Of a stretch of 64,000 nucleotides of DNA, positions 36,729 to 43,560 are shown one piece after another (the stretch's first letter is position 1; the number at the start of each line of letters is the position of its first letter). The DNA comes from Candidatus Iainarchaeum sp. Lineage in GTDB: Archaea > Iainarchaeota > Iainarchaeia > Iainarchaeales > JAFCCJ01. Both the position numbers and the translations under genes were made by a program. The stretch spans positions 3,548-67,547 of the forward strand of contig JBDRHK010000015.1 in assembly GCA_043816965.1 (NCBI GenBank), in the 5' to 3' direction. Below the pieces are notes generated by a model that was not told the origin of the DNA, ran no database searches, and saw only the letters and a list, made by a program, of their open reading frames with translations.

Positions 36729-37562
36729 ATGGTTGATTTGAACACTCTGAATGTGGAGCAAATAGCTACGGATAGCGTAAACTACATCCAGAACAACTTT
36801 ATCCCCAGTGTTTTTGCCCTTGACCCGGGTGCGATTGCAATAGTGGGGATTGCGGCATTAATCCTGATTGCAATTATATTCAAAACAAGCCAGATTCTTT
36901 TCACCTTGGTAAAAAAATTATTCCTCCTTATAATTGTCGGCTTCTCCCTTTTCTTTTTCATTTCAACTTTTGGGGAAAAGCTTCTGGCCGAAGGCTTTAG
37001 TGGCCAACTAATAATAGTTGGTGTTGTGGGCATTTCCCTGGGGTTGGTTGCACTTGTAATGGCTCTTCTCTCTGCGCACAGGCACACAAAAAGTGCAATT
37101 GCCGGAAGCAGGTCTGAGGTGTTTGAGGAAAAAGTGGCGAAAGAAAAGAAGGAACCGCTGCAAGAGGGCAAAACAACATTTTCTGCCAGCGGCTTCCTGG
37201 ACTCAATGCAGAACGACAGGAGCATTCTTGCGGTTTTGAGCTATGTGATTATCGCCCAGTTTGGCGTTTTCAGTTCAGTTACCCTTGCCGCCCCAAATTC
37301 AACAACAGGAATGGTGCTTGCTGCCGTTTTCTTTATCGGGGCATTTATTTTCATAAAGAGCTCATACCACAACTATCTCACAGGGGTAAAGCATCTCCTG
37401 ATTGCTGCGGCATTTGCCCTGGTCCTTTCTGTCGTGCTTGGGCTTTACTGGGCCGAGATTCCACAGGATATTTTGTTTTCAATAGAATATTTCGCATCGC
37501 CCTCGATGATTGCATTTGCAACAAGCATAGCGGTAAGCCTCTTGATGGGAAGCAAGGAGTGA
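36729..37562 (+). CDS. hypothetical polytopic membrane protein
   Basis: 7 predicted TM helices. Confidence 0.35.
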   Translation: MVDLNTLNVEQIATDSVNYIQNNFIPSVFALDPGAIAIVGIAALILIAIIFKTSQILFTLVKKLFLLIIVGFSLFFFISTFGEKLLAEGFSGQLIIVGVVGISLGLVALVMALLSAHRHTKSAIAGSRSEVFEEKVAKEKKEPLQEGKTTFSASGFLDSMQNDRSILAVLSYVIIAQFGVFSSVTLAAPNSTTGMVLAAVFFIGAFIFIKSSYHNYLTGVKHLLIAAAFALVLSVVLGLYWAEIPQDILFSIEYFASPSMIAFATSIAVSLLMGSKE

Positions 37563-41019: not shown

Positions 41020-41100
41020 TTCGATAACACCTTCTTTCGTACGCCGCACCGGAAACCCACTCCCGAAGGCGTATTTAAAGACCCAATACAAAATTTTATT

Positions 41101-42363
41101 ATGGGTATTAAAGGACTTGATTGTAAAACAGAATATCATTGGTTTGATGAGCCAGATACTGTAAGAGTTAGATTAGAAAAAGAGCTCTGGGAAATATTTA
41201 TAAATAAGGCAATTGCGAAGGCAGGCTCAAGAACCAGATTAGCAAATGCAACTGGACTATGCAAGGTAACTGTTTTCAATTATTTCCACAATATAAGTTT
41301 GACCGTAGGAGGGGTAAAGAAAATTCTTAATTTTTTAAACATTGATTACATGTCGGTTGAAGATAAAGTTAGGGAAATTGCTTGGACTAAAAACATTAAA
41401 TTGCCAATAAAACTTAATACGCCATCTATGGCTACTATTTTAGCAGCAGTAATTGGAGATGGAACTATTAGTGAAGTGCACGTAGAATATAAAAACAAGG
41501 ATAGTGAGCTACTGAATAAAGTCGAGAAAGAAATAAAAAAGACTTTTGGAAATGTTAAAATAGATCATAGAATTTCTGAGAAGGGCATTCCTTATATAGT
41601 TGCTAACAAAATTGTTAAAAGAGTTTTAATAAACGTTGGAGTGCCCGTTGGCAAAAAATTAAATAAAAATTCTGGAGTTCCAAAGATTATTGTGAATGGT
41701 TCAAAAAGAATGCAAAAAGCATTTATTCAGCAATTATTTGATGATGAAGGTTGGGTTGAAAACACCAATTATAAAATTGGATTATCGCAAGCCAATGAGT
41801 GTACTAATGCAATTAACAAAAAATTTTTTTCTGGAATGAAAATAAACAAGCCCTACAGCATAAATAAAATCCCCGAAGAAAATCGAAATAATGTTTTGCC
41901 TCCTCAACTCTTAACAGGCATAAGAAAAATCCTACATGAAAAATTTTTAGTCGAGTCCAATCTAAGGCTAAAAAGAATAATAAGGCGGAGAAAAGGATAT
42001 GTTACTGCATTCTGGGAACTTAATGTGGGCAAGAAAGAATCATTATTAAACTTCAAAAATAGAATTGGATTTTATTGCAAGAGAAAAAGAAAAGACTTTG
42101 ATTTAATGGTTGGATTAAGAGAAAGCATGGTTCCAAAAGACATTCTAAGTCAAATATTTTACGAAGGAGCGAATCTTTCGAAGGAAAATGGGAGGTTTAA
42201 AGTTAAGGAAATATCCAAAAAGGTAAATCTCCACCCGTCCCGTATCAGGAAGAGGCTACAGACTCTCGTAAAAAGAGGTGTTTTTTATAAGAAAAATGGC
42301 GACTATGGCCTAAATCATAGTTATTTAATTAAAACCTTTTTTAACTCAACTAATAGGGGTTTA
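41101..42363 (+). CDS. HTH-LAGLIDADG homing endonuclease-like ORF, in frame with the downstream GTPase (no stop between)
   Basis: Motifs ILAAVIGDGTIS and FIQQLFDDEGWV. Shares the WTKNIKLPIKL / HTKGAKRAVPLAL block and HTH region with the HEN at 54451..55527. Confidence 0.55.
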
Positions 42364-43560
42364 ATGCAAATAGGTTGTGTGGGTAAACCATCGAGTGGTA
42401 AGAGCACGTTTTTCAGTGCTGCAACACTTACTGATGTTGAAATTGATATGCGGCCATTCACAACTATCAAAGCTAATATTGGAACAGGATATATAACGAC
42501 AAAATGCGTGCATGGGGAATTTGGCAAACAGTGCCAACCCCAGAATAGTAAATGCGTAAATGGCATTAGACTCATACCAATTCAACTTTTAGATGTTGCA
42601 GGGCTAATTGAAGGTAGCTGGCAAGGTAAAGGACTTGGAAATTCTTTCATGTCGGATTTAATGCAAGCAAGTGCTTTAATCCATGTTTTGGATGTTGCCG
42701 GAATAACAGATGCGCAGGGCAATGTCTGTGGTTCAGGAACGCATGATCCGGCAGTTGACATTAAGTTTCTCGAGAGGGAGATTTCATATTGGATAAAAAG
42801 CATTTTAACAAAAAACTGGGCTAAAATAAGTAAACAATCCGGATTGAATGAGAAGGGTCCTGGAGTAGCATTGGCAAAACAGTTGAGCGGATTGGGAATA
42901 AGTGAAGATTGTGTGAATGATGTTTTGAAAGAAGGCAATTTCAGTGATAAGCCATATTCATGGAACGAAGAAGAAATTTTGAGATTTAGCGGGCTGGTTA
43001 GGGATAAAAGCAAACCTTTGTTGATTGCTGCCAATAAGATAGATCTTGCTGGGGCGCGAGAAAAATATGAAAAAATAAAGAAAGAATTTCCAAATTATAA
43101 GATTTTTCCAACTTCCGGAGCGGCAGAGCTTGCATTAAGAAAAGCAGAGAGAAATGGGATAATAAAGTATGTTCCAGGTGAAGATAAGTTCGAGATTGTA
43201 AAAGGAGATATTGATGAAAAGCAAAGGAAAGGATTAGATTTTATTCAGAAAAATATCCTTGATAAATATGGTTCGACCGGGATACAGAACGTGTTAAATA
43301 AAACAGCATTTGAACTTTTGGATTTGATAGTAGTTTATCCTGTTGAGGACCAGAATAAGTGGACAAGTGGGCAGGGAAATATTCTCCCAGATGCTTATTT
43401 GTTGAAGAGAGGAAGTACTCCAAAAGATTTATCTGGCAAAATTCACAGTGATTTTATTGATAAGTATATTGGGTCAATAAATTGCAAAACAGGCCAAAAG
43501 ATTTCTGAAAATTATAAACTGCAAAACAACGATGTTATCAAAATTATGCTCTCTCACTAA
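42364..43560 (+). CDS. Obg-family GTPase (YchF/Ygr210-like) with C-terminal TGS domain
   Basis: G1 MQIGCVGKPSSGKSTFFSAAT, G3 DVAGL, NKID G4 (ANKIDL), C-terminal TGS. 399 aa is full length for the family. Confidence 0.85.
   Translation: MQIGCVGKPSSGKSTFFSAATLTDVEIDMRPFTTIKANIGTGYITTKCVHGEFGKQCQPQNSKCVNGIRLIPIQLLDVAGLIEGSWQGKGLGNSFMSDLMQASALIHVLDVAGITDAQGNVCGSGTHDPAVDIKFLEREISYWIKSILTKNWAKISKQSGLNEKGPGVALAKQLSGLGISEDCVNDVLKEGNFSDKPYSWNEEEILRFSGLVRDKSKPLLIAANKIDLAGAREKYEKIKKEFPNYKIFPTSGAAELALRKAERNGIIKYVPGEDKFEIVKGDIDEKQRKGLDFIQKNILDKYGSTGIQNVLNKTAFELLDLIVVYPVEDQNKWTSGQGNILPDAYLLKRGSTPKDLSGKIHSDFIDKYIGSINCKTGQKISENYKLQNNDVIKIMLSH

What the first reader, a model, noticed from the sequence alone, without database searches (positions are those of the whole stretch)
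41101..43560. Paralogous HTH-LAGLIDADG endonuclease ORF fused in frame to the start of an Obg-family GTPase
The 819-aa track ORF is two modules. The first 421 codons have LAGLIDADG motifs ILAAVIGDGTIS and FIQQLFDDEGWV plus an HTH. They share the WTKNIKLPIKL / HTKGAKRAVPLAL block with the Lon-locus HEN, so they are paralogs. The last 399 codons are a complete Ygr210/YchF-like GTPase beginning at its own ATG (42364, MQIGCVGKPSSGKST). No stop separates them. Either a homing endonuclease inserted just upstream of the GTPase and is translated as a fusion, or the GTPase starts internally. No upstream extein exists (Cdc6 is complete), so it is not an intein.
Basis: seen in the sequence. Interest (0 to 1): 0.6.

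Follow-up and report, generated by a model that had tools for sequence, protein, structure and literature searches.

The report
Homing-endonuclease gene run into GTPase gene
A free-standing LAGLIDADG homing-endonuclease-like gene that sits beside the start of one housekeeping GTPase gene in several DPANN archaea has lost its in-frame stop codon in this genome, so it reads straight into the GTPase, which still carries its own start signals; this is a local variant of a known kind of selfish gene, not a new protein architecture.

Summary
The 819-codon ORF (41101-43560, +) is real. Residues 1-~407 are an intact two-motif LAGLIDADG protein with an N-terminal HTH and a C-terminal winged helix. Residues 422-819 are a complete YchF-related (YGR210-type) GTPase. 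No stop lies between them.

- **Relatives:** every relative of the endonuclease module found is a separate gene of about 405 aa. In 7 of 8 distinct loci whose upstream flank can be read (window included), it lies at the 5' end of this same GTPase gene. Three are co-directional and four are divergent.
- **Fusion:** none of the 120 closest GTPase homologs listed is fused.
- **Cause:** in the closest relative (66% identity) the endonuclease stops at a TAA inside a conserved box, ATTTAATTAAAAC. An endonuclease-free orthologous locus has the same box upstream of its GTPase. The window reads this box one base out of register, so all eight nearby stop triplets fall out of frame.
- **GTPase start:** ATG 42364 has the TATA-like plus SD-like layout seen at 23% of gene starts here but at 1 of 377 internal ATGs.
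- **Not supported:** it is not an intein, and the claimed paralogy with the Lon-locus ORF is only superfamily-level.

Likely reading: a long-resident homing-endonuclease gene with incidental read-through, and a GTPase made independently. A sequencing error cannot be excluded. Interest is moderate.

The parts
41101..43560 (+). 819-codon open reading frame: endonuclease module, read-through spacer and GTPase
   Evidence: ORF list; domain matches; no in-frame stop
41072..41080 (+). TATA-like box TATTTAAAG about 25 nt before ATG 41101, with no SD-like motif. It is the probable promoter of a leaderless endonuclease mRNA (inferred).
   Evidence: sequence. The homologous CATTTATAAAGA lies at the same place in L001.
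41101..42321 (+). Endonuclease module proper (residues 1-407), colinear with free-standing homologs of about 405 aa. The first 6 residues (MGIKGL) are not conserved.
   Evidence: alignment A1; model; fold matches to TliVMA and PI-PfuI intein endonucleases, I-Tsp061I, I-DmoI and WhiA
41179..41334 (+). N-terminal helix-turn-helix domain (residues 27-78)
   Evidence: four helices, pLDDT 75-91; weak Pfam matches to Homeodomain in the window protein and to HTH_26 in P0001
41437..41472 (+). LAGLIDADG motif 1, ILAAVIGDGTIS; putative catalytic D120 is codon 41458-41460
   Evidence: position; G119, D120 and G121 invariant; K131 invariant
41722..41757 (+). LAGLIDADG motif 2, FIQQLFDDEGWV; putative catalytic E216 is codon 41746-41748
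   Evidence: D214-W218 invariant; LAGLIDADG_3 at residues 205-323
42142..42312 (+). C-terminal winged helix-turn-helix (residues 348-404)
   Evidence: HTH_24, TrmB and IclR matches, all below cut-off; H348-363, H368-375, H379-391, E395-398, E401-404
42322..42363 (+). Read-through spacer (residues 408-421, HSYLIKTFFNSTNRGL). This is the former intergenic/promoter DNA of the GTPase. It contains the box ATTTAATTAAAACC (42323-42336), the ancestral stop TAA (42326-42328, now out of frame), a T6 run (42337-42342) and the SD-like TAGGGG (42354-42359).
   Evidence: DNA comparison with L001 and with endonuclease-free L013; residues 413-440 have pLDDT below 50; start-signal statistics
42364..43560 (+). 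Complete YchF-related (YGR210-type, Obg-like) GTPase of 398 aa, with P-loop GKPSSGKST at residues 7-15 of the module
   Evidence: PRK09602, 520 bits; MMR_HSR1, YGR210-like_G4, TGS; homologs are 381-420 aa

Best explanation
**What it is.** The first 407 codons are a free-standing LAGLIDADG homing-endonuclease-type gene (HTH + two-motif nuclease core + winged helix). Its lineage lives at the 5' edge of the archaeal ychF-like GTPase gene in DPANN archaea.

**Ancestral state.** As in the closest relative, the endonuclease ORF ended at a TAA lying inside the GTPase's own upstream box. An oligo-T run and an SD-like motif followed, then the GTPase ATG.

**What changed here.** Small indels in the unconstrained last codons put the endonuclease frame one base out of register across that box. 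Every stop triplet is therefore missed, and the frame happens to meet the GTPase ATG in phase.

**Consequence (inferred).**
- The GTPase is still made on its own from its own TATA-like box, SD-like motif and ATG 42364.
- The endonuclease is made either as a read-through 94-kDa fusion, or as a non-stop product if its transcript ends at the T6 run.

**Why it sits there (inferred, not shown).**
- The enzyme cuts endonuclease-free alleles in or next to the highly conserved P-loop-coding first ~50 bp of the GTPase gene.
- Recombinational repair then copies the endonuclease gene into the nearest harmless place, which is just upstream of the GTPase promoter.

**Shown:** anatomy, linkage, presence/absence between orthologous loci, the register shift and the start-signal layout.

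**Inferred:** expression pattern, nuclease activity, target site and homing.
For: **1. Relatives are separate genes.** All 4 database homologs and 4 further loci encode the endonuclease as a separate ORF of about 403-426 aa; two of these copies are incomplete (a frameshifted one and one cut by a contig end). None of the 120 best GTPase homologs is longer than 420 aa.

**2. Linkage to the GTPase 5' end.**
- Co-directional: window, L001 and L017.
- Divergent, with 175-207 nt between the two starts: L002/3, L004, L006-9 and L011/16.

**3. Presence/absence at orthologous loci.** These loci share the PheT, RFC-L and Cdc6 neighbourhood.
- L014 and L015 lack the endonuclease.
- L013 lacks it but keeps a remnant of its 3' end, '..NGKYYLNQDI*', with 38 of 49 nt identical to window 42293-42342 by my hand count of the alignment.

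**4. Signs of decay and sloppy 3' ends typical of such genes.**
- The copy in L006-9 is frameshifted in four assemblies.
- L017's ORF overlaps the GTPase start out of frame.
- L001 stops 36 nt before the ATG.

**5. The register shift.**
- The distance from CCTAAA to the ATG is 57 nt in both the window and L001.
- L001 has two in-frame TAA stops.
- The window has 8 stop triplets, all out of frame.
- 19% of shuffles of the 17-codon stretch stay open, so no selection is needed to explain the open frame.

**6. The box is a DNA-level element.** ATTTAATTAAAACC is conserved as DNA in three different reading contexts, including the endonuclease-free L013.

**7. ATG 42364 looks like a real gene start.** It has both a TATA-like and an SD-like element. 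This combination is seen at 23% of the first ATGs of 53 long ORFs but at 1 of 377 internal in-frame ATGs.

**8. The nuclease looks intact.**
- D120, E216 and K131 are invariant, and a basic residue is kept at position 225. These are the classes of residue that WhiA has lost (PMC3384342).
- The fold matches I-DmoI and intein endonucleases.

**9. Composition.** Endonuclease GC is 0.28-0.32 in every locus, always below the adjacent GTPase.
Against: - **Co-divergence.** Endonuclease and GTPase identities track each other across clades. This fits long vertical co-inheritance better than frequent horizontal homing.
- **No recent mobility seen.** No pair of near-identical alleles with and without the gene was found.
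- **Two orientations.** The gene occurs in both orientations relative to the GTPase. Simple homing does not produce this, whereas it is common for regulators and their targets.
- **No target.** No cleavage site could be identified, and no activity can be tested here.
- **A conserved fusion elsewhere.** A sister subfamily is fused in frame to a cytidylyltransferase in three clusters at 57-76% identity. In-frame fusion can therefore be stable and perhaps selected.
- **Possible error.** The window's own genome is not in the databases searched, so the missing stop cannot be checked against reads or a second assembly. One extra base near 42317 would suffice to create the fusion.
Confidence: 0.55

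Rival explanations
1. Domesticated DNA-binding protein. The LAGLIDADG/HTH protein no longer homes. Instead it binds the shared upstream region and regulates the GTPase and itself, as WhiA does in bacteria or I-TevI does as an autorepressor.
For: - Adjacency to the GTPase 5' end is kept in both orientations across deep divergence, and the two genes diverge in parallel.
- The protein has three DNA-binding modules.
- WhiA is among the best structural matches.
- The divergent intergenic regions carry repeated TGATTTRAA-like motifs.
Against: - Catalytic-type acidic and basic residues are invariant, unlike in WhiA (PMC3384342).
- Distribution is very sparse. About a dozen representatives score at the level of the GTPase-linked copies (E below about 1e-60), against more than 7500 GTPase homologs.
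- Orthologous loci do without it.
- One locus has a deletion remnant and another a frameshifted copy.
- In L010 the gene is no longer beside the GTPase.
- GC is consistently low.
Confidence: 0.2
2. Sequencing or assembly artefact. The real genome has one base fewer near 42311-42320, the endonuclease stops at TAA 42326-42328 as in L001, and there are two ordinary neighbouring genes.
For: - A single extra base upstream of the box is enough to produce the fusion.
- The fusion is unique among all relatives.
- The source is evidently a metagenome-type DPANN genome that is absent from the databases. Best hits are only 65-67% identical.
Against: - The extra base is not in a homopolymer run (AATCATAG).
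- Related loci show that real variation of the stop position is common: L001, L017 and the RibL-type fusions.
- The rest of the ORF is colinear with homologs and has no frame problems.
Confidence: 0.2
3. Selected bifunctional fusion. The endonuclease/HTH module is a working N-terminal domain of the GTPase, for example tethering it to DNA or using the host gene's expression. This would resemble the conserved endonuclease-cytidylyltransferase proteins.
For: - P0205, P0273 and P0274 keep an in-frame fusion of a related module to a cytidylyltransferase at 57-76% identity.
- In-frame LAGLIDADG-host fusions are known in fungal mitochondria, for example rps3 (PMC7902536).
Against: - Within the GTPase-linked subfamily the three co-directional loci have three different outcomes: a stop, an out-of-frame overlap and an in-frame fusion.
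- The joining 14 residues are promoter DNA conserved at DNA level, not at protein level, and are predicted disordered.
- The GTPase keeps full start signals.
Confidence: 0.1
4. Intein or degenerate intein at the N-terminus of the GTPase.
For: The best structural and weak NCBIfam matches are to intein-associated endonuclease domains.
Against: - There is no N-extein. The ORF starts 25 nt after a TATA-like box, and Cdc6 is complete.
- There is no Hint/splicing-domain match.
- The module does not begin with Cys/Ser and does not end in His-Asn.
- The GTPase profile is complete from its Met.
- Homologs are free-standing, and some are on the opposite strand to the GTPase.
Confidence: 0.01

Closest known systems
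Monomeric two-motif archaeal LAGLIDADG homing endonucleases (I-DmoI, I-Tsp061I) and the endonuclease domains of archaeal inteins (PI-PfuI, TliVMA)
   Same: - Two LAGLIDADG motifs about 96 residues apart, with a conserved Asp and Glu at their ends.
- Fold match to I-DmoI chains at TM about 0.6 (normalised to the target) and Foldseek E of 1e-6 to 1e-4.
- Archaeal host.
   Different: - It is neither inside an intron nor inside an intein.
- It carries an extra N-terminal HTH and a C-terminal winged helix.
- No solved structure is detectable by sequence (0 hits at E <= 0.01).
- Activity is untested.
Free-standing homing endonuclease genes of phages (T4 seg/mob genes; 'intronless homing'), named from my own knowledge
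   Same: - A stand-alone endonuclease gene parked in an intergenic spot next to a conserved gene.
- Patchy presence or absence between otherwise collinear genomes.
   Different: - Those are GIY-YIG or HNH enzymes in phage genomes.
- This is a LAGLIDADG enzyme in cellular DPANN genomes, apparently resident for a long time and co-diverging with its neighbour.
WhiA/DUF199 (domesticated LAGLIDADG + HTH regulator)
   Same: A LAGLIDADG core tethered to a C-terminal HTH. WhiA is a top-5 structural match (3hyi).
   Different: - WhiA has lost the metal-binding acidic and neighbouring basic residues (PMC3384342). Here D120, E216 and K131 are invariant.
- There is no WhiA family match in Pfam or NCBIfam.
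- WhiA is universal in Gram-positive bacteria, whereas this protein is sporadic.
In-frame LAGLIDADG-host gene fusions in fungal mitochondria (rps3-HEG)
   Same: An endonuclease ORF is joined in frame to a host protein-coding gene without intron or intein (PMC7902536).
   Different: - Those sit in organellar genes.
- Here the fusion is to the N-terminus of a chromosomal archaeal GTPase.
- Here it arises by reading through the host promoter.
- Here it is found in only one of three co-directional loci.
Fractured genes with split inteins and a free endonuclease ORF (Dassa et al. 2009, PMC2677866)
   Same: A free-standing endonuclease ORF associated with a conserved P-loop protein gene. The window's own LonB locus looks like such a case.
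   Different: The GTPase is not split and has no intein halves.

Membership tests
LAGLIDADG homing endonuclease superfamily | [quoted passage not shown] | tested here: met
   - Pfam LAGLIDADG_3 at 28-31 bits, above the 22.5 cut-off.
- GDG and DDEGW are invariant.
- Fold matches to I-DmoI, PI-PfuI and I-Tsp061I.
LAGLIDADG homing endonuclease superfamily | Site-specific double-strand cleavage of a long target | not testable with these tools
   Needs purified protein and candidate target DNA.
Mobile homing endonuclease gene | Presence/absence polymorphism at the same genomic site in related genomes | tested here: met
   Present in the window and L001. Absent in L014 and L015. A deletion remnant is present in L013. 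All are in the same PheT/RFC-L/Cdc6 neighbourhood.
Mobile homing endonuclease gene | Evidence of recent horizontal spread (endonuclease much more similar than host genes, or both allele types in one population) | tested here: not met
   Endonuclease identity is no higher than GTPase identity in any pair: 66 vs 67%, 59-71 vs 58-70%, and 33-42 vs 43-51%. No near-identical empty site was found.
Intein | In-frame insertion between two extein parts, an N-terminal Cys/Ser with block A/B, and a C-terminal His-Asn followed by Cys/Ser/Thr | tested here: not met
   - There is no N-extein and Cdc6 is complete.
- There is no Hint-domain match.
- The junction reads ...NRGL|MQIG.
- The GTPase profile is complete.
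YchF-related GTPase (NCBIfam PRK09602; Pfam YGR210-like_G4 + TGS) | Full-length match above the curated cut-off, with G1 P-loop, YGR210-type G4 domain and TGS domain | tested here: met
   - 520.5 bits against a cut-off of 387, over profile positions 3-394 of 397.
- MMR_HSR1, YGR210-like_G4 (124 bits) and TGS all match.
WhiA/DUF199 regulators | LAGLIDADG core lacking catalytic acidic and basic residues, plus a WhiA-type C-terminal HTH | tested here: not met
   The acidic residues and K131 are conserved. No WhiA family hit was found.
Conserved domain fusion (endonuclease module as a true GTPase domain) | The same fused architecture in orthologs | tested here: not met
   The 120 best GTPase homologs are 381-420 aa. 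The endonuclease homologs found are 403-426 aa where complete, and separate.

The most novel reading that the evidence does not exclude
This HTH-LAGLIDADG-winged-helix family would be a class of archaeal endonuclease genes with an unusual way of living beside host genes.
- Family size: 961 cluster representatives at E <= 1e-3.
- Lifestyle: they would colonise the 5' edge of housekeeping genes whose conserved nucleotide-binding motif lies at the extreme N-terminus. Examples are the P-loop of the GTPase and GGxFDxxHxGH of the cytidylyltransferase.
- Persistence: they would last there for long periods, sometimes as in-frame N-terminal extensions of the host protein.
- Significance: this would be a third way, besides introns and inteins, for a homing endonuclease to live with a protein-coding gene, possibly sliding into a regulatory role at the host promoter.
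Probability: 0.25. Interest if true: 0.65.

Novelty: new variant of a known kind. Interest (0 to 1): 0.4.

Why it matters
- **Annotation.** The 819-aa 'protein' should not be taken as a new GTPase architecture. It should be annotated as two units, with the GTPase starting at 42364.
- **Biology.** The locus offers a compact natural series for studying a chromosomal homing-endonuclease gene beside an essential gene. The series runs from an intact separate gene, through an overlapping gene, an in-frame read-through and a frameshifted copy, to a deletion scar and an empty site.
- **Open question.** If the nuclease targets the P-loop-coding start of the GTPase, that would explain how such a gene can persist without an intron or intein.
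- **Tool source.** It would also provide a new, sequence-distant LAGLIDADG scaffold with two accessory DNA-binding domains.

Tried and rejected
- **Intein or degenerate intein:** rejected on anatomy.
- **Close paralogy with the Lon-locus ORF:** rejected (also no Pfam hit for that ORF).
- **The 334-aa gene upstream of the GTPase in L013 as a diverged endonuclease:** rejected. It is a tandem Lrp/AsnC-type HTH protein that shares only generic winged-helix similarity.
- **GTPase start in the 278 nt upstream of the endonuclease in L010:** none found. Homology to the other divergent loci stops just before the GTPase TATA-like element.
- **Context of P0275, a distant free-standing family member:** no link to a cytidylyltransferase or GTPase, so uninformative.
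- **Profile search of PDB sequences:** no hit.
- **Foldseek against afdb50:** the library was unavailable.
- **Literature search for LAGLIDADG plus DPANN:** nothing on this gene pair.
- **Looking for the window's own genome in the protein collection:** the best hits were 65-67% identical. The assembly could therefore not be cross-checked.
- **Discriminating nucleotide pattern in the first 45 nt of the GTPase between endonuclease-plus and endonuclease-minus loci:** none seen by eye.
Full report
**1. What is in the sequence**

The ORF 41101..43560 (+) is 819 codons long.
- Residues 205-323 match Pfam LAGLIDADG_3 above its cut-off. Residues 362-394 give weak winged-HTH matches.
- Residues 422-816 match NCBIfam PRK09602 'YchF-related putative GTPase' at 520 bits (cut-off 387) over profile positions 3-394 of 397. 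Pfam MMR_HSR1, YGR210-like_G4 and TGS also match.
- The GTPase is therefore complete from Met422 (ATG 42364).
- The quoted motifs are at the stated places.
- No in-frame stop separates the modules. All eight stop triplets between 42290 and 42366 lie in the other two frames.
- GC drops to 0.30-0.33 over the endonuclease part.
- Cdc6 upstream is complete.

The GTPase's nearest relatives are annotated as Candidatus Diapherotrites (DPANN archaea) at 61-67% identity. The window's own genome is not in the protein collection.

**2. The endonuclease module is normally a separate gene**

- A search of 5.8 billion proteins found only four relatives of residues 1-421. They are 403, 405, 407 and 307 aa long, and none is fused to anything.
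- The alignment is colinear from residue about 8 to about 407. G119-D120-G121, K131 and D214-D215-E216-G217-W218 are invariant. All homologs stop within a few residues after a K-Y-x-L/I-N motif.
- The window protein runs on for 14 more residues (HSYLIKTFFNSTNRGL) into the GTPase Met.
- An AlphaFold model (pLDDT 72) shows three folded parts: an N-terminal four-helix HTH, the two-domain core and a C-terminal winged helix. Residues 413-440 are unstructured.
- Foldseek against the PDB finds intein-associated endonucleases (TliVMA, PI-PfuI), I-Tsp061I, WhiA and I-DmoI.
- No solved structure is detectable by sequence.
- A profile search of 1.84 billion cluster representatives finds 961 family members at E <= 1e-3. 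Most are 380-450 aa.

**3. The gene is tied to the 5' end of this GTPase gene**

| Locus | Arrangement |
|---|---|
| L001 (Diapherotrites MAG, endonuclease 66% identical) | Directly upstream, same strand; stop TAA 36 nt before the ATGCAAATAGG start |
| L017 (331-kb metagenome contig, 36% identical) | Same strand; endonuclease ORF overlaps the GTPase start by about 55 nt, out of frame |
| L002/3, L004, L006-9 (= L012), L011/16 | Divergent; 175-207 nt between the two starts |
| L010 (4.4-kb contig) | No GTPase in the 278 nt upstream; homology to the other divergent spacers ends just before the GTPase TATA-like element |
| L018 | Cut by the contig end |

Seven of the eight readable loci, counting the window, therefore have the linkage.

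**4. Presence, absence and decay**

Orthologous GTPase loci in the same PheT/RFC-L/Cdc6 neighbourhood differ in whether they carry the endonuclease.
- L014 and L015 lack it. A divergent gene begins 47 nt and 21 nt upstream of the GTPase respectively.
- L013 also lacks it. Its 97-nt spacer nevertheless keeps the last codons of the endonuclease ('..NGKYYLNQDI*') and the box. By my hand count of the alignment, 38 of 49 nt are identical to the window.
- The gene upstream of the GTPase in L013 is an unrelated Lrp/AsnC tandem.
- In L006-9 the endonuclease is broken by a frameshift in four independent assemblies.

Endonuclease and GTPase identities run in parallel:

| Comparison | Endonuclease identity | GTPase identity |
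|---|---|---|
| window vs L001 | 66% | 67% |
| within the divergent clade | 59-71% | 58-70% |
| between clades | 33-42% | 43-51% |

The association is therefore old. I found no sign of recent horizontal spread.

**5. How the fusion arose**

- DNA alignment of the junction shows a box, ATTTAATTAAAAC(C), followed by T-rich sequence and a G-rich SD-like motif. It is shared by the window, L001 and the endonuclease-free L013.
- In L001 the endonuclease stop is the TAA inside this box, and a second in-frame TAA follows.
- In the window the distance from CCTAAA to the ATG is the same as in L001, 57 nt. An extra base just before the box (AATCATAG against AACC-AG), offset by changes after it, makes the ORF read the box one base out of register.
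- The 17 codons concerned stay open in 19% of composition-matched shuffles. The open frame therefore needs no selection.
- The box is conserved as DNA in three different reading contexts. It is a DNA-level element, most simply the GTPase promoter, not a protein linker.

**6. Is the GTPase expressed on its own?**

- Upstream regions of 53 long ORFs in the window show a recurrent layout. A TATA-like A/T box lies at about -45 to -30 and a (T)AGGGT/GGTG motif at -10 to -5, for example before pheS and the genes starting at 36729, 20776 and 13661.
- ATG 42364 has both elements.
- The combination occurs at 23% of first ATGs but at 1 of 377 internal in-frame ATGs.
- The endonuclease ATG 41101 instead has a TATA-like box 25 nt upstream and no SD. 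This suggests a leaderless mRNA, and the box is homologous in L001.

I infer that the GTPase is still made as a 45-kDa protein. Whether the endonuclease is made as a 94-kDa read-through product, or as a non-stop product ending at the T6 run, cannot be decided here. Archaeal termination at oligo-T is my own knowledge, not a result from these calls.

**7. What the endonuclease is for**

The residues that WhiA-type domesticated proteins have lost are kept here. These are the acidic pair and the neighbouring basic residues (PMC3384342).

Several observations together fit a homing-endonuclease gene going through the usual cycle of residence, decay and loss:
- the sparse distribution;
- the low GC;
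- the empty sites;
- the deletion scar;
- the frameshifted copy;
- the displaced copy.

The P-loop of the GTPase is encoded by nucleotides 19-45 of the gene. A nuclease aimed at that very conserved DNA could be co-converted from a site just upstream of the promoter. This is an inference; I could not identify a target.

The parallel divergence and the two orientations keep a regulator role alive as the main rival.

**8. A parallel in a sister subfamily**

- P0205, P0273 and P0274 (586-629 aa, 57-76% identical) carry a related module fused in frame to a cytidylyltransferase. Its GGxFDxxHxGH motif follows the junction at once.
- In L019 the neighbour is a CTP-dependent riboflavin kinase. The junction DNA again has an A/T box and a G-rich run before GTG/TTG codons.
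- In-frame read-through into the host gene therefore recurs in this family and can last.
- In the GTPase-linked subfamily, however, the three co-directional loci show three different outcomes. This argues against selection for the fusion here.

**9. Comparison with known systems**

It is a LAGLIDADG superfamily member (tested and met). It behaves like the free-standing endonuclease genes of phages, and in its fused form like the rps3-LAGLIDADG fusions of fungal mitochondria (PMC7902536). It is not an intein, not WhiA and not a conserved domain fusion; each of these was tested and not met.

**10. Verdict**

- Novelty: a new variant of a known kind.
- Interest: moderate (0.4).
- An assembly error at one base remains possible, at about 0.2.

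Noticed in passing
window 52532-57148: LonB is split into pieces.
- ORF 52532-53554 is the LonB N-part. At ...DVRHDPLQ|CFYGFNVLY it runs into what looks like an intein N-half, then stops.
- An unrelated gene remnant lies on the opposite strand.
- A free LAGLIDADG ORF follows at 54451-55527.
- ORF 55727-57148 begins with an intein C-half (...VEDVLVHN|SGGLG) followed by the LonB AAA-lid and protease domains.

This looks like a 'fractured gene' with a split intein and a free endonuclease ORF (compare PMC2677866).
   Followed up: partly
window 53608-54108 (- strand): Two short ORFs on the minus strand lie between the Lon halves. One matches Pfam Asparaginase N-terminal (E 1.8e-7). The other has no Pfam match at E <= 0.01, and the two do not form one continuous ORF. 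This is probably a decayed asparaginase-like gene.
   Followed up: partly
L019 47-1813; proteins P0205, P0273, P0274: A related HTH-LAGLIDADG-winged-helix module is fused in frame to the N-terminus of a cytidylyltransferase. The fusion is conserved in three protein clusters at 57-76% identity. In L019 the neighbour is a CTP-dependent riboflavin kinase.
   Followed up: partly
L013 4925-4975: An endonuclease-free orthologous locus keeps a 3' remnant of the endonuclease ORF ('NGKYYLNQDI*') in its 97-nt spacer, together with the ATTTAATTAAAACC box. This looks like a deletion scar.
   Followed up: yes
L006 6001-7226 (also L007, L008, L009, L012): The endonuclease gene of this Nanoarchaeota lineage is split by a frameshift. 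The tblastn pieces cover residues 4-335 and 290-405 in different frames. The same break is seen in four independent assemblies.
   Followed up: partly
L010 1-300: This endonuclease copy (71% identical to that of L004) keeps about 185 nt of the usual divergent spacer but is not next to the GTPase. Homology ends just before the GTPase TATA-like element, so the copy has been displaced or rearranged.
   Followed up: partly
L004 1597-1794; L011 3769-3968; L006 5793-6001; L002 465-641: The divergent endonuclease-GTPase spacers share several conserved blocks.
- Three to four copies of TGATTTRAA-like motifs occur in both orientations.
- In L004 there is a GGACAG...CTGTCC inverted repeat.

These could be promoter elements or binding sites.
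   Followed up: no
L017 4140-4260: In this locus the endonuclease ORF has no spacer at all. Its conserved C-terminus abuts the GTPase ATG, and the ORF continues 55 nt into the GTPase in another frame.
   Followed up: yes
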